Assembly (NCBI GenBank): GCA_963974875.1
Contig: CAXBER010000005.1
Span: 120,928-184,927 of the forward strand
Origin: an uncultured Pseudohongiella sp.
GTDB lineage: Bacteria > Pseudomonadota > Gammaproteobacteria > Pseudomonadales > Pseudohongiellaceae
Direction of reading: 5' to 3'
DNA length: 64,000 nucleotides
Translations under genes and position numbers: made by a program
Notes under the pieces: generated by a model
What the model saw: the letters and a program-made list of their open reading frames with translations, nothing else
The model's database searches: none
Told to the model about the DNA's origin: nothing
Part shown: piece by piece, positions 25,148 to 62,038 of the stretch
Layout of the letters: each line of letters begins with the position of its first letter
How positions within the stretch are numbered: the first letter of the stretch is position 1

Positions 25148-25208
25148 CTTGATGTGTATTCGGTGGTTTTCCGACTACTTGTGATTTTCAGCGCCGGCCG
25201 GTGTCAAC

Positions 25209-42274: not shown

Positions 42275-42280
42275 GTGGCT

Positions 42281-42308
42281 ATTGTATCTCATGGGATACA
42301 ATTTGCAA
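42281..42308 (-). promoter_or_regulatory. TA promoter and operator
   Basis: Minus strand TTGCAA-16-TACAAT overlapped by ATTGTATC-N6-GATACAAT. Confidence 0.75.
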
Positions 42309-42310
42309 GA

Positions 42311-42853: not shown

Positions 42854-42989
42854 GGTGACACTTTCCTTCGAGGGCGTGAAAACTGCAAGTATGTCGTAAT
42901 CTGCGGCTGGGGAGGTCGTACCGGTGGGTAAAAAAGAAACCTTGGTCACTTCGTAGGAACTGCGGCGCGGTGGTGTGCGGGCGGCGCGT

Positions 42990-43787: not shown

Positions 43788-43843
43788 CAGAGCAGTCTGT
43801 CACATAGCTCGCTAGCGAGCCAGCGTGGAATTGGGGCAAAAAG

Positions 43844-44260
43844 TCAGTTTTTCACTTGCCACCGGTTCTTCACGAACACATCATTCAAATCGCTCAGCGA
43901 GACCTCTGGATCCATCGGATTCAGCGCAGGATTGTGCAGGGTAATGCCACCGTCTGCTCCGGGTATAAATGAGAAGCAGCCTTTAGCGCTCACTATGCTG
44001 CCGGGACCGACGAATGACTCTATTTTCTCTGCTTCCGGGCGGGTAATGCTGAAGTGAAGAGTGACCTCGAAAATCATGCCTAGTCCGTCAAGCGCCAACG
44101 CATCGCCGTAGATATCGGCACTACCGTCCGCAAAAAAGCAGTACGATATATCAGTGATCTTCAATATTGTTTCCAGCTCAAACTGTAACAGCCAGAGGTA
44201 GGTCTCCCTTGGGTGTGTGTATTCAACATCATTCGTATCTCTCATGAGGTAAATCTCCAA
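43844..44260 (-). CDS. Hypothetical protein
   Basis: 138-aa ORF starting 3 bp after the previous stop in a co-oriented run. Confidence 0.6.
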   Translation of the reverse strand: MEIYLMRDTNDVEYTHPRETYLWLLQFELETILKITDISYCFFADGSADIYGDALALDGLGMIFEVTLHFSITRPEAEKIESFVGPGSIVSAKGCFSFIPGADGGITLHNPALNPMDPEVSLSDLNDVFVKNRWQVKN

Positions 44261-44263
44261 TGA

Positions 44264-44608
44264 TCAATCAGCGGCAAGCATGGTGTCAGCGCTGATTTTT
44301 GTGTGCCACTCAATAGTTACTACGTCGCCAGTAAATTCAACAACGCCTGCATTCTTTGGCAGTTGATTGCACTGCCCGCGATACTGGATAAAGATATCCA
44401 GGAGATTCATAAGTTCAATTTTGAAACCGGTTTCGCTGCAACGGGCGCCGACTTTCTCGTCCTCCAGGAACCACCTGGACCAGGAAATGCGATCCTCATT
44501 GTCTTCGGCGAAGAATATGACCCTGACTTTATGCGCTACTATGTCAGGGTATTGCCGTGCCAGCATTGTCAGCCGCATCTGTTCGAAGTCAGGATCGTAA
44601 TCTGACAT
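44264..44608 (-). CDS. Hypothetical protein
   Basis: 114-aa ORF with GGGGTGGG RBS-like sequence, directly downstream of the AAA ATPase. Confidence 0.65.
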   Translation of the reverse strand: MSDYDPDFEQMRLTMLARQYPDIVAHKVRVIFFAEDNEDRISWSRWFLEDEKVGARCSETGFKIELMNLLDIFIQYRGQCNQLPKNAGVVEFTGDVVTIEWHTKISADTMLAAD

Positions 44609-44641
44609 TTCCCACCCCTGTTATTGTTAACGGTAAAAATT

Positions 44642-46753: not shown

Positions 46754-46789
46754 CTCCGGTTGGTGGGAGTTGCAGAATACCCGGAGTTG

Positions 46790-46862
46790 CGACGAGAAGT
46801 GTCGTTTATGACGGATTGATTGAATTAGCCAATTGGGTAGGTTGCAACGACACAAAATGTCG
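46790..46862. promoter_or_regulatory. Two CGAC-N7-GTCG palindromes (putative WYL-regulator sites)
   Basis: CGAC-GAGAAGT-GTCG at 46790-46804 and CGAC-ACAAAAT-GTCG at 46848-46862. Confidence 0.65.
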
Positions 46863-46922
46863 GTACTATCATTAAGGTACCATCGTTACGGTACCATCGA
46901 TATAAGCAAGGCAGGTACTACC
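46862..46922 (+). repeat. GGTACYAYC direct repeats
   Basis: Copies at 46862, 46876, 46890 (14-bp period) and 46914. Confidence 0.75.
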
Positions 46923-46995
46923 TGACGCCAGGCGCAAAAAATAATGCGTCGGAAAACTAAAAACATGAAAAAACAGACAGATAACGGAAGCATTC

Positions 46996-47952
46996 ATGCC
47001 AAAACGCCCTGATGGCATGGAAACGGTTCATCTGACCATTGAACTGTTACAGCGCATCCCCAGGCAGCGCAAAATCACCGCCAACGAGCTTCAGGCACAG
47101 TTGGCGGATGCCGGTTATGAGCGGACTTTGCGCAGCATCCAACGTCAACTGCAGCAGATCACCGAGCATTTTGATGTCGAATGTGATGACCGTAGCAAAC
47201 CCTTTGGCTACCGCTGGAAAGAGAAATCCAAAGGTTTGTCCCTGCCCGGGCTGAACCAGCATGAATCATTACTGCTGGCGCTGGCAGAGCAACATCTGCG
47301 CAACCTGCTGCCCGGCAAACTCATGGCCTCCATGGACGCGTACTTCCGCCAGGCCCGAACCAATCTGCAGGACACCAGCAAAGCACACCTTGAAAAAGAA
47401 TGGCTGCAGAAAGTCAGAGTGGTCAGCGCAACCCAACCATTACTCCCGCCAACCATAGACGAAAGCATTTTCTCCCAGATCAGCCATGCGCTGTATAACA
47501 ACCTGTGGCTGAAGATCCGGTATCGCAATGCCAGCGGCAAGGAGGTTGACTCGCGCGTCATGCCTCTGGGGTTGGCACAGCAAGGCGTGCATTTGTACCT
47601 GGTGTGCCGCTTTGAAGGGTTTGACAATGAGCGCACACTGGCATTGCATCGGTTTATTTCGGCGGAAGCCGGTACGATGACGTTCAAGCGGCCGAAAGAG
47701 TTTGATCTGCGGCGTTACGACGATGATGGGCGCTTTGGTTTTGGCGAGGGGGAGCGAATCAAGTTGAGCTTCTGCATCAATAAGGCGGCCGGGAAACATT
47801 TGTTAGAGGCGCGGTTGTCTGAGGATCAGGTGGTTGAGGAGTTTGAGGGGTATTACCGGATTACGGCGACGGTGGTGGATAGTGCGATGCTGGATAGGTG
47901 GCTTCGTGGATTTGGGGGGGAGCTCTGGGCCGCATCAAAAAATGGAATTTAG
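46996..47952 (+). CDS. wHTH-WYL-WCX transcriptional regulator
   Basis: RIPRQRKIT...RTLRSIQRQL; YRNASG...MPLGL...LYLVC...ALHRF; LLEARLSEDQ...WLRGFG. Confidence 0.92.
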   Translation: MPKRPDGMETVHLTIELLQRIPRQRKITANELQAQLADAGYERTLRSIQRQLQQITEHFDVECDDRSKPFGYRWKEKSKGLSLPGLNQHESLLLALAEQHLRNLLPGKLMASMDAYFRQARTNLQDTSKAHLEKEWLQKVRVVSATQPLLPPTIDESIFSQISHALYNNLWLKIRYRNASGKEVDSRVMPLGLAQQGVHLYLVCRFEGFDNERTLALHRFISAEAGTMTFKRPKEFDLRRYDDDGRFGFGEGERIKLSFCINKAAGKHLLEARLSEDQVVEEFEGYYRITATVVDSAMLDRWLRGFGGELWAASKNGI

Positions 47953-48460: not shown

Positions 48461-50747
48461 ATGTCAATTTTTAAAGCAGAAGCTAAATCGTTGCTAAAAT
48501 TGTTTACAGGTGAGGCAAACCGTATCGGCTTTAAAATCCCGGAATATCAAAGGAAATATGACTGGGGTGAAAACAATATCATTAGATTATTCGAAGATAC
48601 TCTGTCTGGATTGAAATCATTGGAGCGGGATCCAGATTCCATCACATTCTTAGGTTCAATAATTCTTATCCAAAATCAAGATCTAAGAGAGCCGAGCTTT
48701 GACGGAGAATCTTTAGAAATAGTGGATGGTCAGCAGCGAATAACTTCATGCGCTATAGTAGCGGTGCATCTTCACGAAGCGATAGACACGGAACTGTCTA
48801 GTCTTCCCGAGATAGGCACTGATCTTAGAGAGTGGTTAACAAGAGAAGCGAAAAGAACGAAGCAATTGCTGCTGCAGTGCGTATTTGGGAATTTATTGGT
48901 GGATGGTATAGATAATTTCCCATTTCCTAGAATTGTAAGAACGAATGATAATAGAGCTGCGTCAGATGGTGAGTTGGAATATCGGTCATTAACTGCTAAG
49001 TATTTTTTTGGGTATGCTCAACATATTAGAAAAAGGACTAGTCGCCTATACGAGAAACCCGAAGCAGACAAAAATGATCAATCGACAGTCAGATTCTTGG
49101 AGAATGTCAAATTTATAGAAAAATGCATAAGGGTTCTCAGTAAGAGCTCCGAAGAAGTTGACTTTGGAGTAGAGCTTCTAGAAACGAATACTTTCAAGGT
49201 GACAAATATAAGAAAGCTCTTTCAGGCTCCATCGGAACGACAAGACATCACTAATAGACACTTCGAAATGATATGTGGCAAGTACCGATGTGAAACAGAA
49301 GCTCTGGTGAGGCTTGTCATTTTTGCAAACTATTTCCTGGAAAATGTAATTCTAACCGTTGTAACTACTCGGGCAGAGAAATACGCTTTTGATATCTTTG
49401 ACTCCCTTAATACGACAGGCGAGCCATTGACTGCGATCGAAACATTTAAGCCTAAGGTAATTCGATTCGAAAACGGCCAGCAAGGAAAGTACAAGGGATC
49501 CGAAAGTGAGTCCCATTTTGCCGTGGTAGAGAAATATATCGATCAATTTAGTAAAAATAGTGACAAACAAGAAGAGTCGCGTGACCTAATTCTTCCCTTT
49601 GCGCTGCTAACGACTGGTGACAGATGTTCTCGCCATTTGGTAAACCAGCGACGATATCTGAGAGCAGAGTATGATTCAATACCTGTTGAAAATAAGGTTA
49701 ATAAACGGAAATTCATTAAAAATCTCGCAGACATTGCGAGGTTTAAAAGCGAGTTTTGGAATCGAGATAACTTGCTTCAAAGGCTGCCAGTACTCTCGGA
49801 CAGAGAGTCTGTAATATTGTGCCTTGCATTCCTAATAGACCTTAAAAACACTCTTGCAATACCCATACTCACGCGAGTATGGGTTCATTCAGAAGAGATG
49901 GGCGATTTTAAGTTTTTTGCGGACTGTGTCAAAGCACTAACAGCTTTTGTAGTACTTAGAAGAAGCGCTACGGGAGGGACTGCAGGGATCGATAATGATC
50001 TAAGAGGTGTGATGGAAAAAGGGGGGGGTAGATGGAAGCGACCGAGGAATGAAAACTGGGACGAGGTTTGACCGTCCGATGACTTCCGTGACTGACTTCA
50101 AGGAGATGCTGAAAGTTCGTCTAGCAAGACGACCTGCGGAAATTAACGGCAAAGAATCTTGGCTTGACCAGGCCAAAAAGCAACCTTTGTATTTAAGCTC
50201 GCGACCTCTTTGTCGGTTCATTATTCTCGCCGCAAGTCACAATTCTCGCCCATCCCAGGCAGAACCCATACTTTTATTGAAAGATAGACCCAGCCCTGAA
50301 CTGGAGTATCTTTCTTATAGAAAGTGGTTTGAAGACGATTTACTAACAATTGAGCATATAGCACCCGAAAGCGACCGGGAGCGGAAGTGGCCGCTGCCAA
50401 TTTATGATCTACCCTATCTAAGGCACACAATCGGAAATTTGACGTTACTTTCACAGGAGCAGAACTCTGCAATAGCCAATTATGAATGGGGACGGAAGAA
50501 GCTTTTCTATAAAGCATTTTCTGTAGATACGATACGGGAAGTTGAAGCAGCTATCCATGAAGCTTCTGGTCACGGGGTTTCCTTTAGTAACAGGACCAAA
50601 GTGATGCTGAGGGGAATGCGGCAATTGCCAGTGGCAAAAGGGATATCCTTGGCCAGTACGTGGTCTGTCGCGGAGATTGAAGCTAGAACTGAAAATTTGC
50701 TTAGCATCTGTTGGGATGAGATTTCCCCTTGGCTTTTTGATAGCTAA
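48461..50747 (+). pseudogene. sspE: SspE-like DUF262-DUF1524 effector split by a +1 frameshift in a G8 tract (ORFs 48461..50071 and 50049..50747)
   Basis: IPEYQRKYDW, DGQQR and FDSLNTTG in ORF1; EHIAP and GNLTLL in ORF2. Removing one G from 50021-50028 gives a single 761-aa frame. Confidence 0.8.
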
Positions 50748-51067
50748 AGTTTTCTCTGTTTAATAATGCCAGCAACACGATTTGTATCGTAGGTCTTTGG
50801 CCGTAGTTGGAATGGCTCAAAATTAACTCAGGGTCATCGATCAGGATAAGTTATTCGAGAACGGATAATGTGTCCTGAAAGAGCGATTCCGCGGGCCTGA
50901 CGTCTTGAGGGTTGGTTGTATTGAGTATATTGAAAGTATTGTGGTGTGCCTAATTTAAATTGATGGTGAGGTTGCGAGTTGAAGTTACGGCTTTTCGAGC
51001 TGCTTTCGTTTTAATAGGCGGTACACTGGCAGGTTGGCAACAAAGGTATACCTTATAGGCCGGCGTG

Positions 51068-51096
51068 ATGTAACATTATCTCATGTTATGTTACAT
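51068..51096 (+). promoter_or_regulatory. Inverted-repeat operator in front of the ssp operon
   Basis: ATGTAACAT-N11-ATGTTACAT. Confidence 0.7.
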
Positions 51097-51109
51097 AGAG
51101 GGTAAAGTG

Positions 51110-51310
51110 ATGGCAGTGGGCTCAAGCGGTCGAATTGTGATAGAGATTGATCCGGCTACGAAAAAAGAGCTATATCATATGCTTAGAGAGGAAAACTCCA
51201 ATTTAAAAGAGTGGTTTCTACGGCATGTAGAGGATTACCTGGCAGGTAAAGAGCAGTTTCAGTTAGATCTTGGGGCTCCGGTTCGTAACAAAGGCAGACA
51301 TTTTATATGA
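51110..51310 (+). CDS. Small ribbon-helix-helix-like regulator leading the ssp operon
   Basis: RIVIEID...KKELY..L...NLKEWF pattern; ATGA overlap with sspB. Confidence 0.6.
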   Translation: MAVGSSGRIVIEIDPATKKELYHMLREENSNLKEWFLRHVEDYLAGKEQFQLDLGAPVRNKGRHFI

Positions 51311-52227
51311 GATTCAACCCCGAAAAAATGGCCTTCGGGCGGCACGAGACTTTCGCTCTACGCTATGGCTGGCTCTCCAAGGGTTTTCAGGCGCTAGAAG
51401 AAGACGACGGCATCTTCGAGTCAGACGACGCAACTGTAAAGTTGGGCGTGGGTAAAAACATGGTAAATGCCATCAAGTATTGGTTGCGCGCTTGTCAGAT
51501 GATGCACCCTACTCAGAATGCCCCTACTCAGCTTGGAAAAGAGTTGTTGTCTGGTACTGGGTTCGATCCCTACCTAGAAGATGAAGCTACGATATGGTTA
51601 TTGCATTGGCTTTTGGCTACGAATGCTGAACTAGCGACCTCATGGTATTGGTTCTTTAATCGCTTTCATAAGCCAGAGTTTACTGGTCAAGAGTTGAACA
51701 CGGCCCTCAATGACTTCGTTTCGGACAAAGTCATTAATAGAAAAAAACCTGCCCCTGCGACTTTAGCGAACGACGCGAATTTGCTTCCACGCATGTACAC
51801 CCAATCAAAGGGAAATACTCGAACGCCTCTGGAGGACGCACTAGACTCACCATTTTCTTTGTTAAAGCTAGTGACTCAGAGTGCGAGTGGCAGGAGTTTT
51901 CAATCGCGGCCTATGGCGAGACCCGATTTGCCGCTCGGGGTCTTGGGCTTTGCTGTATGCCAAACGTTTGAGATTAAAAACACCAAGGCAATTCCTATAG
52001 AAGATTTTATGTACAGCAAAGATAATTATCCTGCGATAGGTTCGGTATTCCGACTGACAGAAAGCGACTTAGTAACAAAACTCGAAAAACTAATTAACTA
52101 TATCCCAGGTAAATTCGATATCAGAGATACTGCAGGACAGCATCAGCTTTACTCCTCAGAGGTGACTGATGGAATGATCTACATTGCTGAACACTACAAC
52201 CACCCCGCCCAAGGTGTCGCAGCATGA
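51307..52227 (+). CDS. sspB: SspB (DUF4007) phosphorothioation protein
   Basis: FGRHETFALRYGWLSKG, LGVGKNMVNAIKYW, FDPYLED..TIWLLHWLL. Confidence 0.88.
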   Translation: MRFNPEKMAFGRHETFALRYGWLSKGFQALEEDDGIFESDDATVKLGVGKNMVNAIKYWLRACQMMHPTQNAPTQLGKELLSGTGFDPYLEDEATIWLLHWLLATNAELATSWYWFFNRFHKPEFTGQELNTALNDFVSDKVINRKKPAPATLANDANLLPRMYTQSKGNTRTPLEDALDSPFSLLKLVTQSASGRSFQSRPMARPDLPLGVLGFAVCQTFEIKNTKAIPIEDFMYSKDNYPAIGSVFRLTESDLVTKLEKLINYIPGKFDIRDTAGQHQLYSSEVTDGMIYIAEHYNHPAQGVAA

Positions 52228-55200
52228 CCATAGCAAGGCAAGTCCAAATAAATACACATTACACTCGTTCTATTAATTTGGAGCGCGATGCCAATTCCAT
52301 CGACGTTGTCAAAGCATATATACCTACTTCTAGGTCTCTGAAACTATTCGGTCGTATAGCTGACGGATTTCATGGTGAGCGTGCTCCGCGAGCTTGGTCG
52401 CTAATCGGACCGTATGGATCTGGTAAGTCTTCGGCATCTGTATTTCTTTCCCAATTGTTATCGTCCCCAGACTCTCCCGCAACTAAAGTAGCGACGAAAG
52501 CGCTAAAGGCGGCAGCGCCCGAGATCGCATCGCAATTCCGAAAAGAGACTAGTGGAACCGATGGTTATTTGAAAGTACTAGTGACGGGTTCGCCAGAGCC
52601 GATGGGCAAGAAAATAATTAGAGGGTTGTCGGCATCGGTGGTTCAGTATTTCACAAAATTCAAAGGCTCTAACCCCAAAGTAGTTTCGCGCATTGAGGAA
52701 CTTGTCGAATTAGAGATAGTATCTACTTCGGTTGTGCTCGAGATTATGCTGGAATTGCAAGCAGCTCTTGCAAAAAAGAAATGCAAGGGTATCTACATCG
52801 TTATTGATGAACTAGGCAAATTTCTGGAGTTTGAAGCACGTCACTATGGTGCCAACGATATCTATTTGCTTCAAACTTTGGCAGAGCATGCCTGTAAAGG
52901 TGATGAGTGTAATCTCTTTCTTTTTGTGTTGCTGCATCAGTCCTTTGAGCAGTACGCCAAAGGATTAGGTGAGAGCCTTAAGAACGAATGGGCTAAAGTC
53001 CAAGGACGCTTTGAAGATGTGCCGTTTCTTGAGTCGGTAGAACAAGTTCTGAGGGTGGTGAGTGCTGCCTTCAGCTATGATTTTAAACCGAAAGAGCAAG
53101 CGTTGCTTAAGAAGAGAATGGCTGGCTTTGTTGAAGTATTGGGTTCGAACGGCGCTCTACCCGGCGTCGCAGATAGAAGCGCTATGGTTGATCTCATGTG
53201 CCACTGCTATCCGTTTCATCCAGTTAGTGCTGTGTTATTGCCCACGCTCTGCCAGAAAGTAGCGCAGAATGAGCGGACATTATTCAGTTATCTTGGGAGC
53301 CACGAAGAATTTGGACTCCAAGATATGATTGAACGGTTTAGTTCGCTCGATGATTTTATCTACCCGCATCATGTTTACGATTATTTCATTACGAACCAGC
53401 CCGCGGCTTTAGGTGATTATCGTACTCATAGGCGTTGGGCGGAAGTAGTTACCGCGATAGAGAGGTTGGGCGACGCCCCAGAAGATCAGCTCAACCTTCT
53501 TAAAACGATTGGCCTAATGAATATTATCGGGATAAAGGGAGGTTTCAAACCTTCGAAGGCACTGTTAGGGATCTGTGCGCCCGGAAAAGCAGGGGTAAGT
53601 AGTTCCTTAAAGGCGCTGCAAGATAAGTCAATAGTCACCTATCGGCGTTTTAGCGGAGAGTACAGGGTTTGGCAAGGTAGCGATTTTGATCTTGAAGAGG
53701 CGCTAGAAGAAGAACTAAACAATCTTGGTGAGTTCTCTCTGGCCGAAGAGCTTAATAGTGCTAACGCTTTGATGCCAATCGTAGCTCGAAGGTATACGAT
53801 TAAAAGCGGCGCTCTACGCTACTTTGTCCCCGAGTTTGTAGATGCCCAGACTTATATAAAGTCTTCTGGAAAAACAAGCGAGCCGCGCATAATATTTTTC
53901 CTGGCGACCGCCCAGGATGATGAGGCTCTTTTTAGGAAGTTAGTTGTTCAGCACTATTCAGAGCTCGATCTGGTAGCGCTATGCCTTAACGGAACCCAGT
54001 TAAGAGAAGCTACCGCAGAGGTGTTGGCGTTACGACAAGTGCAAAACAAGAGGCAAGAGTTAAACACTGATCCGGTGGCTAAAAGAGAGTTTGAAGATCG
54101 CCTAACTGCAGCAGAGAACGCGGAGCGGCAGCTTCTTCAGCGACTGCAAGAGCAACCGCAAGAGTGCAATTGGTACCATAGTTCCAAAGAGTATAGCGTA
54201 GACGCAAAGCGCGAATTCCAAGAACTATTGTCCTCAGTTCTAGAAAATGTGTATAGCAAATCGCCTCAGCTGCACAATGAGCTCTTAAACAGAGATCGAC
54301 CATCCGCTCAAGCGAACGCGGCACGCAATAGACTTTTAGAAGCGATGATGTTGAATCCGCTGGATAAGGACGACCTTGGGATAGAAAAATTCCCTCCAGA
54401 GAAGGCTATATATCGATCAATCCTGTTGACTACGGGGCTCCACAATAAGGTTTCGAGGGAATTCCAGGAGCCTGCCAAAGACTCCACAATATTCCACGTA
54501 TGGCGACAGATAAATGAGTTCCTTGACTCTACCGAGAAGGCTCCGAAGAGTTTTGCGCAGCTAAATGAATTGTTGATGGCCCCCCCTTATGGCGTTAAAG
54601 CTGGCATGCTTCCTGTTCTTTACGTGGCCGCATATATCGTCTATCAACATGAGCTTGCTTTATACGAAAACAGGCAATATAAGCCAGTTTTTACCCAGGA
54701 GATGATCGAGAGATTTGTCAAGCGCCCTGATGAGTACACTTTTCAAAGATTCAGGATAACTGGTCTGCGGTCTTCAATTTATAAAGAGTATTGCAAGATT
54801 ATTGATACCGGATCGAAGCAAACTGTAGTTCAGCTAGTGAAGCCCTTAGCTCAATTTATTAGTTCATTGCCTGATTTCACTCAGCGTACAAAGAACTCAG
54901 AAATATCGGACCAAGCTATAAAAGTCAGGAATGCATTTAATTTTGCAAAATCTCCAGAGCACCTGATATTCGAGGAAATACCAAAGGCACTCGGATATGA
55001 GGAAGAGCTCCGTAAGAAGAAACCAAACTTGGAGGGTCTCTCCGCAGCCCTTCAGGATTGCTTGCAACAATTAAAGAAAGCATATCCTCAAATGATCCGG
55101 AATCAAATCCGTATGTTGCTAGGCGCATTTCATATGGATGTTAACGCGGACCTGGAAACCCTTAGAAGAAAGGTAATTGGTCGCTATGAAGGTTTAGAGC

Positions 55201-55703
55201 AGCATACTGTGGATGTAGACGGACTCAAGGCGTTTATAAAGAGGTTGACGAAGAGAGAGGGTGATGACGATAGCTGGCTTGAGAATGTTCTACTTTTCTT
55301 GGGACAGAAGCCTACTACGAAATGGACTGATATGGACTGTACAGAAGTCGATATCAAGCTAAGTGAGTACGCCAAACGAATATTAGACCTTGAGGCTTTG
55401 CGTGTTCACTACGATCGCGTAAAGAGCAATATGGATGGGGACTTTGATGTCATTCTGTTAAAGGCAGTAAAGAAAGGCAGTGAGCCCATCGATGAGGTGG
55501 TGGCGATAGACGCTCGAAAGAAAGAAGCCATTCAACTTTGTAAGGCTGGAATATACGCGGCTATAGAAGGTCATTCGGACTCAGAGTTGCAGCTTGCGGC
55601 TTTAGCCGAAGTCGTCGAAGAGTTTCTGAAGAAACGGAAAAACTCTGTTATGTCTGGTCGTCGCCCCACAAAACAAGTTAGGGAGGTGAAGCGTGGCAAT
55701 TAG
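52224..55703 (+). CDS. sspC: SspC P-loop ATPase
   Basis: SINLERD, GPYGSGKS, IDELGKFLE, YPFHP, QNERTLFSYL; 1159 aa between DUF4007 and PAPS reductase genes. Confidence 0.85.
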   Translation: MTIARQVQINTHYTRSINLERDANSIDVVKAYIPTSRSLKLFGRIADGFHGERAPRAWSLIGPYGSGKSSASVFLSQLLSSPDSPATKVATKALKAAAPEIASQFRKETSGTDGYLKVLVTGSPEPMGKKIIRGLSASVVQYFTKFKGSNPKVVSRIEELVELEIVSTSVVLEIMLELQAALAKKKCKGIYIVIDELGKFLEFEARHYGANDIYLLQTLAEHACKGDECNLFLFVLLHQSFEQYAKGLGESLKNEWAKVQGRFEDVPFLESVEQVLRVVSAAFSYDFKPKEQALLKKRMAGFVEVLGSNGALPGVADRSAMVDLMCHCYPFHPVSAVLLPTLCQKVAQNERTLFSYLGSHEEFGLQDMIERFSSLDDFIYPHHVYDYFITNQPAALGDYRTHRRWAEVVTAIERLGDAPEDQLNLLKTIGLMNIIGIKGGFKPSKALLGICAPGKAGVSSSLKALQDKSIVTYRRFSGEYRVWQGSDFDLEEALEEELNNLGEFSLAEELNSANALMPIVARRYTIKSGALRYFVPEFVDAQTYIKSSGKTSEPRIIFFLATAQDDEALFRKLVVQHYSELDLVALCLNGTQLREATAEVLALRQVQNKRQELNTDPVAKREFEDRLTAAENAERQLLQRLQEQPQECNWYHSSKEYSVDAKREFQELLSSVLENVYSKSPQLHNELLNRDRPSAQANAARNRLLEAMMLNPLDKDDLGIEKFPPEKAIYRSILLTTGLHNKVSREFQEPAKDSTIFHVWRQINEFLDSTEKAPKSFAQLNELLMAPPYGVKAGMLPVLYVAAYIVYQHELALYENRQYKPVFTQEMIERFVKRPDEYTFQRFRITGLRSSIYKEYCKIIDTGSKQTVVQLVKPLAQFISSLPDFTQRTKNSEISDQAIKVRNAFNFAKSPEHLIFEEIPKALGYEEELRKKKPNLEGLSAALQDCLQQLKKAYPQMIRNQIRMLLGAFHMDVNADLETLRRKVIGRYEGLEQHTVDVDGLKAFIKRLTKREGDDDSWLENVLLFLGQKPTTKWTDMDCTEVDIKLSEYAKRILDLEALRVHYDRVKSNMDGDFDVILLKAVKKGSEPIDEVVAIDARKKEAIQLCKAGIYAAIEGHSDSELQLAALAEVVEEFLKKRKNSVMSGRRPTKQVREVKRGN

Positions 55704-56562
55704 AAAAGTATCCATAAAGGACATCGAAGGTTTCGATAGCTGTCGGCATGTCTTGGGCTTGTCAGGTGGCAAGGATAGTGCGGCGCTAGCTGTGTACATT
55801 AAGGATAAGTATCCGGAAGTTCATGAGAAAGTAGAGTATTTCTTTACCGATACTGGTGCCGAACTGAAGGAGGTTTACGATTTTCTGGACAAATTGGAAG
55901 CATACTTAGGAAAAGAAATCGCAAGGCTCAGTAGCGGGAAAGACTTCGATCACTGGCTAAAGGTTCACAATGAATACCTACCATCTGCCAAGCAAAGATG
56001 GTGTACCCGCACGATGAAGATAAAACCTTTCGAAGAGTTCGTGGGTAATGATCCGGTGATTAGCTATATTGGCATCAGAGCGGATGAGAATAGAGAAGGA
56101 TATATAAGCCACAAGGAAACGATAAAAGCGGTATTCCCTTTTGTGGAAGACGGGTTAATTAGAAGCGATATCTTTCAGATTCTAAGTGATTCAGTTGGTG
56201 TGCCTGAGTATTACAAGTGGCGCTCACGCTCGGGATGTTACTTCTGCTTTTTTCAACGACAAGATGAGTGGCTCGGCCTAAAGAGAAATCATCCAGACCT
56301 CTTTGAGAAAGCACGTGAGTATGAAAATAAAATTAGGTCAAAGTTCGACTGGAAGGATGGGGTGATTCCAGTGAATGGTCACGGTTATACTTGGTCGTCA
56401 CAAGGGTCCATTGATGAGCTCGTTCTGCGTGCCGAAGCAAGGGAGAAAGAGCAAGGTATTATTGCAAAGTCATCGACGAAAGCTGAGCGGTGGCAGAAAA
56501 CTATAGAGAATATGATAGATGATGATCCCGAAGACCAGGCTTGTTTGATTTGCAGCCTCTAG
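55693..56562 (+). CDS. sspD: SspD PAPS-reductase-family protein
   Basis: SGGKDS, RWCTR.MKIKPF, YKWRSRSGCYFCFFQ, terminal CLICSL. Confidence 0.88.
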   Translation: MAIRKVSIKDIEGFDSCRHVLGLSGGKDSAALAVYIKDKYPEVHEKVEYFFTDTGAELKEVYDFLDKLEAYLGKEIARLSSGKDFDHWLKVHNEYLPSAKQRWCTRTMKIKPFEEFVGNDPVISYIGIRADENREGYISHKETIKAVFPFVEDGLIRSDIFQILSDSVGVPEYYKWRSRSGCYFCFFQRQDEWLGLKRNHPDLFEKAREYENKIRSKFDWKDGVIPVNGHGYTWSSQGSIDELVLRAEAREKEQGIIAKSSTKAERWQKTIENMIDDDPEDQACLICSL

Positions 56563-56779
56563 GTGTCGCCAAGTTCTCTCTTCGTTGCGAGATTCTCTTG
56601 ATCTCTCTACACATTATGTGTGAGATGAGGCCAGTAATTTCGAAAGGGAAGGTGGCGATTATCTACGTTTTTTCTTCCAGCTACGAATTTCTAGTTGTTA
56701 GATACAGGCTTGCTATTTAACTCAGCTGGGTGGCTTTTTTGCCTATGGAAGGGTTCAACGAGAAAATAGAGGTAAAATT

Positions 56780-58957
56780 GTGACGCTTAGGGAATTGCCG
56801 CTTAAGTCAGTCTACCGCAGTGGTGAAGATAATATTCTGACTGACTTCTATATACCATGCTTGAAATCAAGTGTGCTATACGAAAGAGCAGTTGGCTTTT
56901 TCTCTTCGTCAATTCTAATTTATGCCATGTGCGGTATCTCTGAACTCCTTCGAAATGGGGGTGAAATGCGTCTCATCATTGGCTATCCTCTAGAAGATGA
57001 TGAGTTTGAGATGTTACAGGCAAGTGAGTCGCTTAACCATCTTGGTAGTAAGCTTAGCGCTGATCTCGAGAAAATGATTTTAGGCGCCAATACTGACTTG
57101 CTTAAGTATAGGTTGAAACTCTTTTTCCTGATGACAGTTACAGGCAAGTTGAAAATTAAGTTTGCCTATCGCCGCAACGGCATGTATCACGAAAAAATTG
57201 GGATTTTACATGATGCAAGTGGAAACAAAGTCTTGTTTCAAGGTTCGGCCAATGAGACAACAAACGCTGTAAATCCAGACCTAAACTTTGAATCTATTAG
57301 TATATATCGCAACTGGGTACATGAGATTTACAGTGACTATGCGCAACCCTACGAGAATGGGTTCGCAAGACTGTGGTCTGGCTCTGACCCTCACACTAAA
57401 ACCTTAGATATCCCGAGCGAACTATATACGTTTATTCACAAGCAGATTAATAGGAGTGTCGAGTACTCAAGACTTGATGACCTTATCGAAGACGAGCGAC
57501 TGTTAGGCGAGCGTCAGGTTGTAGCATACGTTAATAGCTACCCAGTGGTGCCGGCGGAGATTGGAGGGAGACCTTTTACGCCCTATCCGCATCAAATTTC
57601 CGCTCTTAGAACCTGGGCCGCTAGTGAGTATCAAGGGATATTCAAACTGGCGACTGGGGCTGGAAAAACGATAACCGCGATGTACGCCGTAGCTAAAGTT
57701 TTCGAGGCAAATAGGGATGAGCGAAGAATTGCCTTAATAGTTGCTGTTCCATATATCGCTCTTGCGGAGCAATGGATCAAAGAGCTAAGGTCATTTAATA
57801 TGAACCCGATCCCATGTTTCGGGGTGCTTGAAACATGGAGGGACCGTCTCAACTCGTCGATAAGCCAGCTTAATTTAGGGGAGCTTGAGTTTTTTAGTGT
57901 TGTTGTTGTTAATCAGACTCTCCATAAAGAGCCATTCCAGTTGAGTATGGCCAGATTATCCCCAGATAATATTTTCTTCGTTGGTGATGAATGCCACCAC
58001 CATGCTACATCTACTCTCGCAAGTGCAATACCTGCCGCCGCATTCAAGATTGGGCTCTCTGCTACTCCATACTCCGACGAGCTTGATGCCGGGTACGAAA
58101 CCGATCCCGTTAGAATAGGCGCTCTTACAAGTGCATACGGCGGGATAGTTGCTGAATACGGGTTAGCAAATGCGCTCGGTGATGGTGTTCTTACGCCTTA
58201 CAACTACTATATTGAACACGTCTATCTTACAGATGTTGAGATGGACGAGTACCAGGAACTCAGTAAAGAAATAGCAACATGGTTGTCTTCAAATGAAAGC
58301 GAGTTGAGCAATAAGGTAAAAGACCTAATCCGGCGCCGAAATCGTATTATTAACAATGCGTCTCAAAAAATACCTGCGCTTCAGAGGCTTCTGGAAGCAG
58401 AGAATATTGATGACAAAAAGCACACCCTAGTGTACGTCGGGGAGGGGAGGGTACTAGAGCAGGAGGGAAATGTTAGCTTAGAAAAAGACCTAAATCAGCT
58501 TAGTGCCGTGGCTAACTGTATGATGAATCTCGGCTGGAAAGTTTCTAGATTTACCGCGCAAGAAAATAAATCTGACAGATTGGCTATTATAAGCGATTTT
58601 AAGGAAGGTAATATTGAAGCTCTAGTATCAATGCGAGTGCTAGATGAGGGCATCGATATACCCGCGTGCGAGAGAGCCTTCATTCTAGCAAGTACAACAA
58701 ACTCTCGGCAGTTCATACAAAGGCGGGGCAGGATATTGCGAAAATCTCCTGGGAAAGAAGTGGCGAACATTTATGATTTCATAGTAATCCCTAGCGTGAC
58801 AGGTAACTCAGCGCCAGCACCTTGCTTCGTAAGTTTAGTCCGAAGAGAGCTTTACCGATTAATGGAGTTTGTGAAATTGTCAAAGAATAGAAAAGAAGGA
58901 GAGAGCTGGGCGGCAAATCTCGCGAGCCAATTTGATCTGGACATAAAGGAGTTCTAA
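56780..58957 (+). CDS. PLD-like/SF2 helicase of PT-associated restriction modules (SspFGH/PbeA-like)
   Basis: YHEKIG...QGSANET; ATGAGKT; DECHH; LSATP; RVLDEGIDIP; QRRGRILR. Confidence 0.8.
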   Translation: MTLRELPLKSVYRSGEDNILTDFYIPCLKSSVLYERAVGFFSSSILIYAMCGISELLRNGGEMRLIIGYPLEDDEFEMLQASESLNHLGSKLSADLEKMILGANTDLLKYRLKLFFLMTVTGKLKIKFAYRRNGMYHEKIGILHDASGNKVLFQGSANETTNAVNPDLNFESISIYRNWVHEIYSDYAQPYENGFARLWSGSDPHTKTLDIPSELYTFIHKQINRSVEYSRLDDLIEDERLLGERQVVAYVNSYPVVPAEIGGRPFTPYPHQISALRTWAASEYQGIFKLATGAGKTITAMYAVAKVFEANRDERRIALIVAVPYIALAEQWIKELRSFNMNPIPCFGVLETWRDRLNSSISQLNLGELEFFSVVVVNQTLHKEPFQLSMARLSPDNIFFVGDECHHHATSTLASAIPAAAFKIGLSATPYSDELDAGYETDPVRIGALTSAYGGIVAEYGLANALGDGVLTPYNYYIEHVYLTDVEMDEYQELSKEIATWLSSNESELSNKVKDLIRRRNRIINNASQKIPALQRLLEAENIDDKKHTLVYVGEGRVLEQEGNVSLEKDLNQLSAVANCMMNLGWKVSRFTAQENKSDRLAIISDFKEGNIEALVSMRVLDEGIDIPACERAFILASTTNSRQFIQRRGRILRKSPGKEVANIYDFIVIPSVTGNSAPAPCFVSLVRRELYRLMEFVKLSKNRKEGESWAANLASQFDLDIKEF

Positions 58958-58960
58958 AAG

Positions 58961-59182
58961 ATGGACCCTATCGAAGAGTTGAAAGCAATAAAGGAAGAAC
59001 TTATCAAGGACGAACAGGAGGACGTGATTCAGAGAACCCTTTCTAAGCTAATTGCTATAGAGAAGTCCGCTGTGTACGGAGGTAGGGTTTCAAATAAAGC
59101 CGGAAAGATAGAGAGCGTGATCGATTCGGAGTTTAAGGTTTATAAGGAGAACTCGGGTGCTTCTAAAAAGAATAAAGCTTAA
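58961..59182 (+). CDS. Small 73-aa protein (PbeB-like position)
   Basis: Tightly packed, 3 bp after the helicase stop and overlapping the next gene; KLIAIEKSAVYG. Confidence 0.65.
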   Translation: MDPIEELKAIKEELIKDEQEDVIQRTLSKLIAIEKSAVYGGRVSNKAGKIESVIDSEFKVYKENSGASKKNKA

Positions 59183-61208
59183 AAATTTTAGGCAGTATTA
59201 TGGCGACGTCCATATACGTTTCGCGACTGATAAACATAAAAATATCACAGTAATACATGGTGAAAATGGGGTTGGTAAGACTGCACTTTTGAATGCAATT
59301 AAATGGTGCTTTTATGGAAACGTCACTACCAATTTCAGAAACCCGCAGGATTTAATATCATTCGCTGCTTTAGAGGAGGATGTTAGATCTTGCTCAGTGG
59401 AAGTAGAGTTCGAGAACGGTGGTGAATTGTTTCTAATAATAAGGACCTATGATAGCTCCAAGGGCTCGCTTACAAAGGCTGCGACTTGTCCGCCAGGGAT
59501 AGTGAAGGTATACAAGCAAAATGACAATGTATGGAGTGCCGCTCTACCGGAACCTGAGCTAGTCATCAATGGCATGCTGCCTCGAGAAATGGCGGATTAC
59601 TTCTTTTTTCAAGGTGAAGGTAGTAATGCGGTTGAAACAGGAAATAAAGGTATCAACTTAGCTAAATCAATTAGAAATATACTCGGTTTTGCGATCGCAG
59701 AGTCTACTCGAGATATGCTACGTAAATACAATAATACATTATCAAGGAAAATCGCTGAGTACGATACATCAGGAGAGGCGCAAAAATCTGCACGGGAAGT
59801 AGAGAAGTTGAGTGATTCTCTGCAGGCAATAGCTTCGCAGATCAAAGATACTGAAGACCTAATTCCTGAACTACAGTCGAGTTTAGAAGAGGCTGAGGCC
59901 AATTTGGCTAAAATAAATCACTTTGATCTTCAGTCGCTTAGGGCCGATGAAACTAAAGCGGAAAGGGAATTATCTTCGCTTCAGAAAGAGCATGCTGAGC
60001 TAAGTATTCGGAAAATAAGGAGTATTAATACTTTTGGTTGGGCGTTGTTTGGCAGTGAGTTCGCAGATGAATCGCTAGATTTTATTGATGACAGTACCTT
60101 AAAGGGCAAGCTACCTGAGCCTTATAACAAAACTTTTATAGATGACATATTGTCAGCCGCTGTGTGTATTTGTGGGCAGTCGCTCGAGCCCGGCTCTCCC
60201 GGCTATCTTAAGATCGCTAGCTTATTAGATAAGGCTGCTAACCCGGCTCTGCAAAATAGGTTGGGAGGCATTCGAGCGCAAATCCAAGACATCAAAACTA
60301 AAAATGAACTAGCCCCGGATTCAATAAGAAGTTTATTGGGCAATGTAGATAAAATCGAGTCCGATATTCAGCTTCAGAAGAACAGGCTCCAATCAATACA
60401 TGAAAAAATCACGTTGATTCCGGAGGATAGAATAGCTGCTCTTCAGAGAGCAAAATCTTCCATCCAAAAAGATCTAAGCAGTCAGAACCAAATGCTGGGC
60501 GGCCTTAAGACTAGGTTTGAAAATCTAACAAAAGAGCACGACTCGAAAAGCAGGCAACTTAAATCACTGCAGCCAAATAGTACTCTGATCGGCGACCTTA
60601 ATTTGCGGAAGTCGTTCATATCTGAGCTACAAGATTTTCTTGTCCGACATATGGAAAAAATTGAGAGCAATGTTCGGTTTCATATCATCAATAGCGTAAA
60701 TAAAATGATGCAAGATTTTTCTCGGCATTCATACAGTATTCGGGTCAAGGAGGAGGACTTCAGTATACAACTCGTTGACAACGATAGTAACTTCGTGGGT
60801 CAAGGGGATGGATTGAATCTTCTTCTGAATTTGTCTATTACTGCATCCCTCATTGAATTCGTCCGAACAAACCAGTTCGTGCGAGATCCCTTGTTGAGTT
60901 CGGCAACTGTCGCCCCGCTAGTTATTGATGCGCCATTCGGAGTGCTAGATAACGCTTATCGAAACGTCGTCGTTGGGAGTTTGCCCGCGCACGCCGAGCA
61001 AGTAATGTTCTTCGTATCTAGTAGTCAGTGGGGTGAGGATATGGATTCGGCCATACGCGATAGAATTGGTGCGGAATACTGTCTAATTCTAGAACAAAAA
61101 GAAGATAAAGGCTCCAAGCCTCTTGATATATTCACTATCAAAGGTCAGGAAATTGTTGCCAATAGATATGAATGTGAGCGTGATCGCGTTTTTGCGCTGG
61201 AGGTTTAA
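59157..61208 (+). CDS. SMC/DndD-like ATPase
   Basis: LKNFRQYYG, GENGVGKT, YFFFQGE, long coiled coil, PLVIDAPFGVLD. Confidence 0.85.
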   Translation: MLLKRIKLKNFRQYYGDVHIRFATDKHKNITVIHGENGVGKTALLNAIKWCFYGNVTTNFRNPQDLISFAALEEDVRSCSVEVEFENGGELFLIIRTYDSSKGSLTKAATCPPGIVKVYKQNDNVWSAALPEPELVINGMLPREMADYFFFQGEGSNAVETGNKGINLAKSIRNILGFAIAESTRDMLRKYNNTLSRKIAEYDTSGEAQKSAREVEKLSDSLQAIASQIKDTEDLIPELQSSLEEAEANLAKINHFDLQSLRADETKAERELSSLQKEHAELSIRKIRSINTFGWALFGSEFADESLDFIDDSTLKGKLPEPYNKTFIDDILSAAVCICGQSLEPGSPGYLKIASLLDKAANPALQNRLGGIRAQIQDIKTKNELAPDSIRSLLGNVDKIESDIQLQKNRLQSIHEKITLIPEDRIAALQRAKSSIQKDLSSQNQMLGGLKTRFENLTKEHDSKSRQLKSLQPNSTLIGDLNLRKSFISELQDFLVRHMEKIESNVRFHIINSVNKMMQDFSRHSYSIRVKEEDFSIQLVDNDSNFVGQGDGLNLLLNLSITASLIEFVRTNQFVRDPLLSSATVAPLVIDAPFGVLDNAYRNVVVGSLPAHAEQVMFFVSSSQWGEDMDSAIRDRIGAEYCLILEQKEDKGSKPLDIFTIKGQEIVANRYECERDRVFALEV

Positions 61209-61214
61209 GGAAAA

Positions 61215-61727
61215 ATGGGATCACTAAGCAAAGAAATAGCAACAAAGGAAGTTCGTCGTAATAACAAATACAATGTTCTGGTAAACCTGCTGGTATTTGG
61301 TTCGCTTGATGGAGATGAAAGCTTTAAAGGTCAACGGGTTTTTCCTTACATTAAGGACTTAATAATATTCGCTGCGATGGTCGGCAAGCGTTTTAATGTT
61401 CAAGAGGAAGTCGAGCGCGAGAATACAAAAATTATTCTAGGTACATTTGAGGGTAGTGCTGGAAGTAGTCGTGAAACAAGAATTGATCAGCATAATATTA
61501 TATTTATGTTTGGGCTTTCTGTGCTCAGAGATATGAAATACTTAAGAGATGAGAATGTGGACGAAGTGATTGAGGTCTTCGAAAGATACTCCAATGGAGG
61601 GTTGGGCATTATTTACGAGTGGCTCCGGGATGCGGCTTGGAACCCTATGGTGTTGCTAGACAAAATGGTCGATGAAGTAGAAGCGTCTGCCGGTGGACAG
61701 CCTAGTGCGATCACCAACCCATTTTAA
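61215..61727 (+). CDS. DNA phosphorothioation-associated small protein (dnd-associated protein 4/PbeD-like)
   Basis: FPYIKDLIIFAAMVG...FERYSNGGL pattern; last gene of the module. Confidence 0.65.
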   Translation: MGSLSKEIATKEVRRNNKYNVLVNLLVFGSLDGDESFKGQRVFPYIKDLIIFAAMVGKRFNVQEEVERENTKIILGTFEGSAGSSRETRIDQHNIIFMFGLSVLRDMKYLRDENVDEVIEVFERYSNGGLGIIYEWLRDAAWNPMVLLDKMVDEVEASAGGQPSAITNPF

Positions 61728-61951: not shown

Positions 61952-62038
61952 TGGTGCCCAGGAGAGGACTTGAACCTCCACGACCTTTCGATCACTAGCA
62001 CCTGAAGCTAGCGTGTCTACCAATTCCACCACCTGGGC
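61952..62038 (-). tRNA. tRNA-Leu(CAG), CCA encoded
   Basis: GCCCAGGTGGTGGAATTGGTAGACACGCTAGC-TTCAGGT-GCTAG...GTTCAAGTCCTCTCCTGGGCACCA; 87 nt with long variable arm. Confidence 0.97.

What the first reader, a model, noticed from the sequence alone, without database searches (positions are those of the whole stretch)
48461..61727. One SspBCD phosphorothioation writer flanked by two different effector modules
An SspE-like gene lies upstream and a helicase/ATPase module downstream of sspBCD, all on one strand. Established: SspE and SspFGH can share one SspABCD module. Here a natural locus appears to carry both, with one effector frameshifted, which may show effector replacement or hedging.
Basis: partly seen in the sequence, partly recalled or inferred. 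Interest (0 to 1): 0.62.

Follow-up and report, generated by a model that had tools for sequence, protein, structure and literature searches.

The report
Ssp DNA-sulfur writer with SspE and PbeABCD
A horizontally acquired island in a marine bacterium joins one DNA-sulfur-marking module (SspBCD) to two anti-phage effectors, a genuinely frameshifted SspE and an intact PbeABCD cassette (not SspFGH); the parts are known, but I found no paper describing the recurrent Ssp-Pbe pairing.

Summary
On the + strand of a low-GC island (48.4-61.7 kb, beside tRNA-Leu) lie sspE, a small conserved ORF, sspB-C-D and a four-gene module.

The downstream module is not SspFGH. It is a complete pbeABCD cassette: HKD-nuclease/SF2-helicase PbeA, 73-aa PbeB, CxC ABC-ATPase PbeC and DndE-like PbeD.

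sspE is broken by one extra G in a G8 run, which cuts off the HNH nuclease. The break is real: three independent metagenome assemblies of the same clone also show G8. It is recent, because dN/dS is 0.17 downstream against 0.11 upstream. The tract is not conserved (G5 in an intact 88% relative), so an evolved phase switch is unlikely.

The genome has IscS but no DndC, so SspBCD is the only writer available to Pbe.

Ssp-Pbe adjacency is recurrent: 40 of 60 PbeA-clade loci with full flanks. At least seven further loci also carry SspE with SspBCD. The two modules are shuffled relative to each other.

Two effectors on one Ssp writer is already published for SspE+SspFGH. I found no paper on the Ssp-Pbe pairing.

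Verdict: a new variant of a known kind, of moderate interest. PT dependence of Pbe here is inferred, not shown.

The parts
48461..50071 (+). sspE, 5' ORF (536 aa). It holds the DUF262/GmrSD_N GTPase domain with DGQQR at residue 89, plus the first part of the C-terminal domain. It ends 44 nt past the G-run in the wrong frame.
   Evidence: PADLOC SspE 517 bits, profile positions 4-527 of 766; Pfam GmrSD_N; motif
50021..50028 (+). G8 homopolymer, the site of the +1 frameshift. An in-frame reading needs one G fewer.
   Evidence: Sequence. The intact 88% relative has G5 here. G8 is also present in three independent metagenome assemblies.
50049..50747 (+). sspE, 3' ORF (232 aa from the first ATG; gene callers start it at 50079, 222 aa). 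It holds the DUF1524/GmrSD_C HNH nuclease part (EHIAP, GNLTLL).
   Evidence: PADLOC SspE profile positions 539-765; Pfam GmrSD_C; motifs; gene calls in L099
51110..51310 (+). Small ORF (66 aa) whose stop overlaps the sspB start by 4 nt. It is RHH-like, and this assignment is tentative. It is conserved upstream of sspB in the same Ssp subclade.
   Evidence: ORF; homologues in L090, L011 and L053; AF2 model pLDDT 61 with two helices after an extended N-terminus
51307..52227 (+). sspB (DUF4007; DNA-recognition/nicking subunit of the writer)
   Evidence: PADLOC SspB 307 bits; Pfam DUF4007 269 bits
52224..55703 (+). sspC (1159-aa P-loop ATPase; Walker A GPYGSGKS, Walker B IVIDE)
   Evidence: PADLOC SspC 1430 bits; motifs
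55693..56562 (+). sspD (PAPS-reductase-like PP-loop sulfur transferase; SGGKDS motif)
   Evidence: PADLOC SspD 348 bits; Pfam PAPS_reduct; motif
56780..58957 (+). pbeA (725 aa: HKD/PLD nuclease domain plus SF2 helicase). The motifs H137-x-K139, D145, GSAN155-158, GAGKT, DECH and QRRGRILR are all intact.
   Evidence: PADLOC PbeA 762 bits; TIGR04095, PLDc_2, ResIII, Helicase_C; columns invariant in 27 homologues; motifs
58961..59182 (+). pbeB (73 aa, small fast-evolving protein between pbeA and pbeC)
   Evidence: ORF. 43-47% identical ORFs sit at the same position in L002 and L003. Size and position match the published 66-aa PbeB. A 71-73-aa gene is called at this position in L099, L102 and L104.
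59157..61208 (+). pbeC (683-aa coiled-coil ABC ATPase of the CxC type: Walker A GENGVGKT, C337-I-C339, Walker B LVIDAP)
   Evidence: PADLOC PbeC 596 bits; AAA_23/SMC_N and a weak DndD match; motifs; CxC definition from PMC10853773
61215..61727 (+). pbeD (170 aa, DndE cognate / 'dnd_assoc_4')
   Evidence: TIGR04062 E=1.8e-11, below its cut-off. PF27807 is listed for the identical gene in L099. AF2 model pLDDT 77 with two beta-alpha-alpha units. The best-fitting PDB matches are DndE, but not significantly.
61952..62038 (-). tRNA-Leu(CAG), the right border of the island. RNase R follows at 62206.
   Evidence: ARAGORN; Pfam RNB

Best explanation
This is a three-module phosphorothioate (PT) defence island.

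Writer. SspB, SspC and SspD, with sulfur supplied in trans by the unlinked chromosomal IscS-type desulfurase, place single-strand PT marks on the host chromosome. This mechanism is inferred from what is established for the family.

First effector. SspE is a PT-sensing GTPase/HNH nickase. In this lineage it is switched off by a real, recent one-base insertion in a G run. The insertion separates the HNH nuclease from the GTPase and DNA-binding part.

Second effector. The downstream module is an intact PbeABCD cassette: HKD nuclease-SF2 helicase, a small protein, a CxC ABC ATPase and a DndE-like DNA binder. It most likely uses the Ssp-written mark to spare self DNA while it attacks unmarked phage DNA or blocks its replication. 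In this strain it is the only working effector.

Shown here: gene identities, intact motifs, the reality of the frameshift, the absence of any Dnd writer in the genome, and the strong recurrent Ssp-Pbe adjacency.

Inferred: that PT is actually written, and that Pbe activity depends on that PT.
For: - Gene identities.
- Motifs intact in SspC, SspD, PbeA and PbeC.
- Operon packing: orf66/sspB/sspC/sspD overlap by 4-11 nt. pbeA-D are 3-6 nt apart or overlapping. sspD and pbeA are 217 nt apart.
- Own genome: an IscS-like gene on another contig (573 bits) and no DndC.
- Adjacency: 50 of 80 PbeA-clade loci have SspBCD within 10 kb, and 40 of 60 with full flanks. SspD occurs in only 6 of 399 other scored genomes of the class.
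- The closest Pbe relatives are Ssp-linked as well. L104 (Pseudomonas sp. PAMC 26793) has sspA+sspBCD+pbeABCD. L102 has pbeABCD+sspBCD.
- Triple loci with PADLOC-confirmed SspE: L004, L017, L021, L022, L031, L036, L038.
- Frameshift is real: G8 in L099, L100 (TARA) and L101, which are independent samples. The assembly is not prone to homopolymer errors.
- Frameshift is recent: dN/dS is 0.17 downstream and 0.11 upstream.
- Nuclease is lost: the break at about residue 523 lies inside the CTD, and the HNH residue N676 is essential for defence (PMC9646914).
- PbeABCD defence is PT-dependent in the archaeal prototype (PMC6459918).
Against: - No experiment shows PT in this DNA, or that Pbe depends on it.
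- Ssp and Pbe identities are only weakly correlated across loci (rho 0.16-0.27), so the two modules do not co-evolve tightly.
- About 10 of 60 Pbe loci show no writer within 10 kb. Some pair with Dnd genes or methylases instead.
- Rakesh et al. argue that CxC/Pbe systems can act independently of PT.
- In a small random sample of SspD-positive genomes, none of six had a true PbeA. Pbe is therefore a minority partner of Ssp.
- The two separate SspE pieces could conceivably keep some activity.
Confidence: 0.75

Rival explanations
1. The Pbe (CxC ABC-ATPase) module is a stand-alone defence system that merely shares a defence island with Ssp. It neither reads nor needs PT.
For: Rakesh et al. 2024 question the role of Pbe as a PT-dependent restriction partner, and note CxC systems without PT genes. 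Between-module correlation is weak. About 10 of 60 loci have no writer nearby. The upstream flank here is a mixed defence island.
Against: Two-thirds of this PbeA clade lies within 10 kb of sspBCD, in several architectures and many phyla. SspD is present in under 2% of sampled genomes. Most of the remaining loci carry Dnd writer genes. The archaeal prototype needs PT.
Confidence: 0.14
2. The G8 tract is a contingency (phase-variation) switch that turns SspE on and off by slipped-strand mispairing while Pbe stays on.
For: A single-base shift in a G8 run. G/C runs of 8 or more are rare: 14 in 3.68 Mb. The downstream reading frame is fully preserved with intact motifs.
Against: The tract is not conserved. 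The intact 88% relative has an interrupted G5. All four assemblies, one genome and three metagenomes, show G8. No intact protein more than 88% identical exists among 5.8 billion clusters. Metagenome scans found no length variants. Minority variants within reads could not be examined.
Confidence: 0.08
3. The split SspE still works as two polypeptides, as GmrS and GmrD do in some relatives. Both effectors would then be active.
For: Both ORFs are intact. An ATG with a GAGG just upstream opens the 3' ORF inside the 5' ORF's tail. From my own knowledge, not checked here: GmrS/GmrD systems exist as separate subunits.
Against: The break is not at the NTD-CTD linker (about residue 325-331) but inside the CTD, near residue 523. 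Even a 3-residue linker deletion lowers nicking and defence. The GAGG lies only 1 nt from the ATG, which is poor spacing.
Confidence: 0.05
4. The frameshift is an assembly or sequencing error, and SspE is intact.
For: Homopolymers are classic error sites. I could not inspect reads.
Against: Three independent metagenome assemblies from different samples carry the same G8. There is no excess of frameshift-like junctions at homopolymers in this assembly.
Confidence: 0.03

Closest known systems
DndCDEA-PbeABCD of Haloterrigena jeotgali A29 (Xiong et al. [quoted passage not shown]
   Same: The same four-gene cassette in the same order and with similar sizes. PbeA is HKD plus SF2 helicase. PbeB is about 70 aa. 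PbeC is a coiled-coil ABC ATPase with a CxC motif. PbeD is a DndE-like protein of about 150-170 aa. It sits directly beside a PT writer.
   Different: The writer here is SspBCD (single-strand PT type, ORC/Cdc6-like ATPase, no DndE), not DndCDEA. The genome has no DndC at all. The host is bacterial. An SspE gene is also present.
SspABCD-SspE (Vibrio cyclitrophicus FF75, E. coli 3234/A, Streptomyces; Xiong 2020; PMC9646914)
   Same: sspB, sspC, sspD and an SspE with DGQQR and HNH motifs. As in E. coli 3234/A and V. anguillarum FF-93, there is no linked sspA, and IscS serves in trans.
   Different: SspE lies upstream of the writer and is frameshifted, so the nuclease is uncoupled. A small RHH-like ORF is translationally coupled to sspB. 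A second effector module follows.
SspBCD-SspFGH, and natural sspE+sspFGH loci (Wang et al. 2021, PMC8092258)
   Same: The same concept: one Ssp writer serving two different effector modules. This was shown to be compatible and additive, and was seen in 36 natural genomes.
   Different: The second module here is not SspFGH. It has four genes rather than three, it has HKD-helicase and CxC ABC ATPase proteins recognisable in Pfam, and it lacks an FtsK-like SspH.

Membership tests
SspABCD-SspE | SspB (DUF4007), SspC (P-loop ATPase) and SspD (PP-loop PAPS-reductase-like) encoded together | tested here: met
   PADLOC 307, 1430 and 348 bits; Pfam DUF4007 and PAPS_reduct; Walker A/B and SGGKDS intact; overlapping genes
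SspABCD-SspE | Cysteine desulfurase (SspA, or IscS in trans) | tested here: met
   No linked sspA. An IscS-like gene lies on contig C4: 573 bits to TIGR02006, which is below the 643-bit cut-off.
SspABCD-SspE | Intact SspE with the DUF262 GTPase and the DUF1524 HNH nuclease in one polypeptide | tested here: not met
   A +1 frameshift in the G8 run splits it into 536 + 232 aa. This is confirmed in three independent assemblies.
SspABCD-SspE | Single-strand PT (for example CpsCA) present in genomic DNA | not testable with these tools
   Needs LC-MS, iodine cleavage or SMRT/nanopore data
PbeABCD / CxC ABC-ATPase system | PbeA: HKD (PLD) nuclease domain fused to an SF2 helicase | tested here: met
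   PADLOC PbeA 762 bits; PLDc_2, ResIII, Helicase_C; TIGR04095 at 415 bits, below its 600-bit cut-off; HKD and helicase motifs invariant
PbeABCD / CxC ABC-ATPase system | PbeC: coiled-coil ABC ATPase with a CxC motif | tested here: met
   PADLOC PbeC 596 bits; Walker A; C337-I-C339; Walker B
PbeABCD / CxC ABC-ATPase system | PbeD: DndE cognate (double RHH) | tested here: inconclusive
   TIGR04062 E=1.8e-11 but under its cut-off. PF27807 is recorded for the identical gene. The AF2 model has two beta-alpha-alpha units. DndE structures are the best-fitting PDB matches (TM 0.57-0.60 normalised to the target), but with E>1.
PbeABCD / CxC ABC-ATPase system | Small PbeB between pbeA and pbeC, with gene order A-B-C-D | tested here: met
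   73-aa ORF at 58961-59182. The same position and size are seen in L002, L003, L099, L102 and L104.
PbeABCD / CxC ABC-ATPase system | Paired with a Dnd (DndC/DndD/DndE) writer, as originally described | tested here: not met
   No DndC anywhere in the genome. The neighbour is sspBCD.
PbeABCD / CxC ABC-ATPase system | PT-dependent inhibition of virus replication | not testable with these tools
   Needs phage assays with and without the writer
SspFGH | Three-gene cassette with a Walker-A SspF and an SspH that has an FtsK/SpoIIIE-like C-terminus and otherwise no recognisable domains (PMC8092258) | tested here: not met
   Four genes. No FtsK/HerA-type domain in any of them. Clear PLD, SF2 and ABC domains are present instead.
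SspFGH | Sequence homology to V. anguillarum FF-93 SspF, SspG and SspH | not tested
Phase-variable (contingency) locus | Homopolymer tract conserved in relatives, with length varying among copies | tested here: not met
   G5 in the 88% relative. G8 in all four assemblies. No variants in the metagenome scans. Read-level heterogeneity could not be tested.

The most novel reading that the evidence does not exclude
SspE and PbeABCD may be more than two parallel effectors. They may form a recurrent composite in which an SspE-type PT reader works with the HKD-helicase/CxC-ATPase machine. In eight loci from distant taxa, sspE directly abuts the pbe operon with gaps of 6-55 nt. In this lineage, the retained 536-aa SspE fragment keeps the GTPase, the PT-sensing part and the DNA-binding part but lacks the nuclease. 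It could still serve as a PT sensor for Pbe. More broadly, Ssp-linked Pbe would be a third major class of Ssp effector, and that would account for many of the 'solitary' pbeAC loci in the 2019 survey.
Probability: 0.12. Interest if true: 0.75.

Novelty: new variant of a known kind. Interest (0 to 1): 0.46.

Why it matters
- PbeABCD has been tied experimentally only to the double-strand Dnd writer, in one archaeal model, and its PT dependence has since been questioned. Here the only PT writer in the genome is Ssp, and Pbe is the only intact effector. The strain is therefore a natural single-variable test of whether Pbe reads single-strand Ssp marks.
- Ssp linkage is the majority state in this PbeA clade. 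That may explain part of the 58% of pbeAC loci that the 2019 survey called solitary (the same lab's 2021 paper still reported 84% of sspBCD clusters without a known effector).
- The fixed, recent loss of SspE in a clone seen in ocean metagenomes gives a small real-world example of effector turnover around a shared writer.

Tried and rejected
- E. coli complete genomes: only the tRNA matched.
- SspE in 60 relatives' genomes: absent, so the island is lineage-specific.
- Integrase or att repeats at the island borders: none found.
- Promoter and terminator scans: at or below shuffled expectation, so uninformative.
- P0122 (523 aa) first looked like a second truncation at the same point. It is an N-terminally cut fragment that reads straight through the site.
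- The WYL regulator at 46996-47952 as an Ssp regulator: dropped.
- Two metagenome-contig scans for tract-length variants returned only the already known intact relative.
- Krishnan et al. 2020, the first CxC description, is not held in the library. A prior mention of Ssp-CxC linkage there cannot be excluded.
- orf66: no Pfam or PDB sequence match and a low-confidence fold. The RHH label stays tentative.
- Direct comparison with the SspFGH reference proteins was not possible.
- The host genus was not determined. The RNase R look-up found no record.
Full report
ANATOMY

The window has a low-GC block at about 48-62 kb. GC is 42-46% in 2-kb windows and 41-47% per gene, against 54.4% for the 3.68-Mb genome. 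On its + strand lie, in order:
- ORF 48461-50071 (536 aa) and ORF 50049-50747 (232 aa)
- a small ORF at 51110-51310
- 51307-52227, 52224-55703 and 55693-56562
- a 217-nt gap
- 56780-58957, 58961-59182, 59157-61208 and 61215-61727

A tRNA-Leu(CAG) follows on the minus strand at 61952-62038, then RNase R.

The small ORF, sspB, sspC and sspD overlap by 4-11 nt. The last four genes are 3-6 nt apart or overlap. This gives two tightly packed units plus sspE.

IDENTITIES

- PADLOC assigns the first two ORFs to consecutive parts of one SspE profile (positions 4-527 and 539-765 of 766).
- The next three large genes are SspB, SspC and SspD (307, 1430 and 348 bits).
- The last two large genes are PbeA (762 bits) and PbeC (596 bits).
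- Pfam and NCBIfam agree. PbeA carries PLDc_2+ResIII+Helicase_C and matches TIGR04095, 'DNA phosphorothioation system restriction enzyme'. PbeC is an AAA_23/SMC_N ATPase with a weak DndD match. The 170-aa protein matches TIGR04062, 'dnd_assoc_4'. PF27807 is recorded for the identical gene in another assembly.

The published pbeABCD cassette is PbeA (PLD plus helicase), PbeB (66 aa), PbeC (SMC-like) and PbeD (152 aa), in that order (PMC6459918). It has been re-annotated as HKD-SF2 helicase, small fast-evolving protein, CxC ABC ATPase and DndE cognate (PMC10853773).

The window matches on every point. That includes the 73-aa ORF between pbeA and pbeC and a C337-I-C339 motif in PbeC.

SspFGH is defined differently. 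It has three genes, a Walker A motif in SspF, and an FtsK-like C-terminus in SspH, with no other recognisable domains. The downstream module is therefore PbeABCD, not SspFGH.

PbeD folds (pLDDT 77) into two beta-alpha-alpha units. Its only well-fitting PDB matches are the three DndE structures, but their E-values are above 1. I rate that as consistent, not proven.

Catalytic motifs are intact throughout:
- SspC: Walker A and Walker B
- SspD: SGGKDS
- PbeA: HKD, GAGKT, DECH and QRRGRILR
- PbeC: Walker A and Walker B
- the two SspE pieces: DGQQR and the HNH elements

THE FRAMESHIFT

The break is in a G8 run at 50021-50028. Reading with one G fewer gives 761 aa, exactly the length of an intact 88%-identical homologue, P0121.

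In that relative's DNA the site reads AAAGGGGGAGTGG, a G5 run. The long tract therefore arose by synonymous changes in this lineage and is not a conserved feature.

Three metagenome contigs from different samples carry the whole island at 99.99-100% identity: ERZ3421961, a TARA Oceans scaffold, and ERZ3422114. All three have G8 and the same 536-aa ORF. Apart from a scaffold N-gap, the only difference is one SNP.

The assembly shows no excess of frameshift-like junctions at homopolymers: 13 of 672 runs against 273 of 20,000 random positions. The frameshift is therefore real and fixed in an environmental clone.

It is also recent. Against the 88% relative, dN/dS is 0.11 upstream of the break and 0.17 downstream.

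No intact protein more than 88% identical exists among 5.8 billion clusters. Two metagenome scans found no tract-length variants.

In the solved SspE, the NTD is residues 1-324 and the CTD is residues 332-771. The CTD holds the DNA-binding helix (about residue 404) and the HNH motif, and N676A abolishes defence. The break at about residue 523 therefore cuts inside the CTD and uncouples the nuclease. SspE is most probably non-functional as a nickase.

WRITER CONTEXT

The genome has an IscS-type desulfurase on another contig (573 bits) and no DndC. SspBCD is thus the only PT writer that Pbe could use. The absence of a linked sspA is normal for Ssp systems.

None of 60 relatives' genomes, 21 of them in the same genus, has this SspE. 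With the low GC and the tRNA border, this marks a horizontally acquired island. I found no integrase and no att repeat.

HOW GENERAL IS THE ARRANGEMENT

I fetched 80 genomic loci encoding PbeA relatives, with 10-kb flanks, and searched them with the window's proteins.
- 50 of 80 have at least two of SspB/C/D nearby. For loci with full flanks the figure is 40 of 60.
- The architectures vary: co-directional, divergent, and a pbeC-D-A order with sspDCB downstream.
- The taxa range from Gammaproteobacteria and Alphaproteobacteria to Acidobacteriota, Chloroflexota and Actinomycetota.

The 20 full-flank loci without Ssp mostly carry Dnd writer genes (DndB in 7, a PAPS reductase in 6, DndA-type in 5) or DNA methylases (2+2).

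SspD occurs in only 6 of 399 other scored genomes of the class, so the linkage is far above chance. Of those six genomes, two have an adjacent SspE and none has a true PbeA. Pbe is a minority partner of Ssp, while Ssp is the majority partner of this Pbe clade.

The closest diverged Pbe relatives are Ssp-linked as well. Pseudomonas sp. PAMC 26793 has sspA+sspBCD+pbeABCD. A metagenome contig has pbeABCD with sspBCD and a DndB-family gene.

Pairwise identities correlate strongly within modules (PbeA-PbeC rho 0.93; SspC-SspD rho 0.83). They correlate only weakly between modules (rho 0.16-0.27). The window's Ssp genes are closest to L053, L011, L014 and L028, while its Pbe genes are closest to L002, L003 and L102. 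The island is a mosaic of re-assorted modules.

TRIPLE LOCI

Nine further Pbe loci carry an SspE confirmed by PADLOC at 500-1500 bits, and all of these copies are uninterrupted: L004, L013, L017, L021, L022, L023, L031, L036 and L038. Seven of the nine also show SspBCD in the fetched stretch. L076 (Nonomuraea) adds an eighth by tblastn alone.

In eight loci, sspE directly abuts the pbe operon with gaps of 6-55 nt. The arrangement is either sspE followed by pbeA, or pbeA or pbeD followed by sspE.

The window's layout, with sspE upstream of the writer, is a different architecture. It is also the only one of these with a broken SspE.

COMPARISON WITH THE LITERATURE

Two effectors sharing one Ssp writer is established for SspE+SspFGH. 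That pair is compatible and additive, and 36 natural genomes carry both (PMC8092258). PbeAC and DndFGH also co-occur near 25 dndCD clusters.

An Ssp-Pbe pairing is a different matter. Only two held papers contain both 'sspBCD' and 'PbeA', a review and an optical-mapping paper. The 2021 SspFGH paper, the 2024 reappraisal, the 2025 review and the 2026 gut-microbiome survey do not describe it.

Earlier AI notes of this scan report Ssp-Pbe operons in other genomes with the same literature result. They agree with my reading but are not independent evidence.

MECHANISM AND VERDICT

The most likely mechanism (confidence 0.75) is this. IscS and SspBCD mark self DNA with single-strand PT. PbeABCD uses that mark for self/non-self discrimination and is the only active effector here. 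SspE was a second, PT-stimulated nickase that this lineage lost recently.

Shown: identities, motif integrity, the reality and recency of the frameshift, the lack of any other writer, and the recurrent linkage.

Inferred: PT writing, and PT dependence of Pbe.

Rivals are a PT-independent Pbe (0.14), a phase-variable SspE (0.08), a functional split SspE (0.05) and a sequencing error (0.03).

This is a new variant of a known kind. Its main value is as a natural test case for Ssp-dependent Pbe defence and as an example of effector turnover around a shared writer.

Noticed in passing
window 51110-51310: A 66-aa ORF whose stop overlaps the sspB start is conserved (47-79% identity) upstream of sspB in Kangiella (L011), an Oleiphilaceae MAG (L053) and the metagenome relative (L090). 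Its pattern is a strand 'GRIVIEID' followed by two helices, which looks like a ribbon-helix-helix. It could be an unrecognised regulator or subunit of one Ssp subclade. The fold model is low-confidence (pLDDT 61).
   Followed up: partly
window 55967 (sspD codon 92): This is the only polymorphism among the four assemblies of the island. The window and L099 have His92. L100 (TARA) and L101 have Pro. The position is always H, Y or F in 25 SspD homologues, inside a conserved WLK-x-[HYF]-x-x-[YF]-LP stretch. The writer may therefore be impaired in part of the natural population.
   Followed up: partly
L004, L013, L017, L021, L022, L031, L036, L038: In these loci from Oleiphilus, Moraxella, Roseovarius, Vibrio halioticoli, Thioclava, Pseudoalteromonas and others, an intact sspE sits 6-55 nt from pbeA or pbeD in the same orientation. 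It appears to be co-operonic with the Pbe cassette rather than with sspBCD.
   Followed up: partly
L102:247-2145 and L102:7194-8978: The 72% PbeA relative has a 632-aa methyltransferase-like gene directly upstream of pbeA. It also has a DndB-family gene, rather than SspE, beside sspBCD. This is another variant of the Ssp-Pbe composite.
   Followed up: no
G242:C23:23071-24297 (next to SspD at 24663-25475): One randomly sampled SspD-positive genome has, right beside sspD, a 547-aa frame that matches only the helicase part of the PbeA profile (74 bits). This may be yet another kind of helicase effector linked to Ssp.
   Followed up: no
window 41737-47483 versus L090:1-2069: In the 88% relative, the esterase-like UPF0227 gene (91% identical to window 41737-42875) lies only about 1 kb from sspE. 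The window has about 3.7 kb more in between (42.9-46.6 kb), holding the AAA+ ATPase run. L090 keeps only a 72%-similar 173-aa remnant of the WYL gene. The left flank of the Ssp island is thus a site of module turnover. A 526-bp segment of it is repeated at window 29261-29786.
   Followed up: partly
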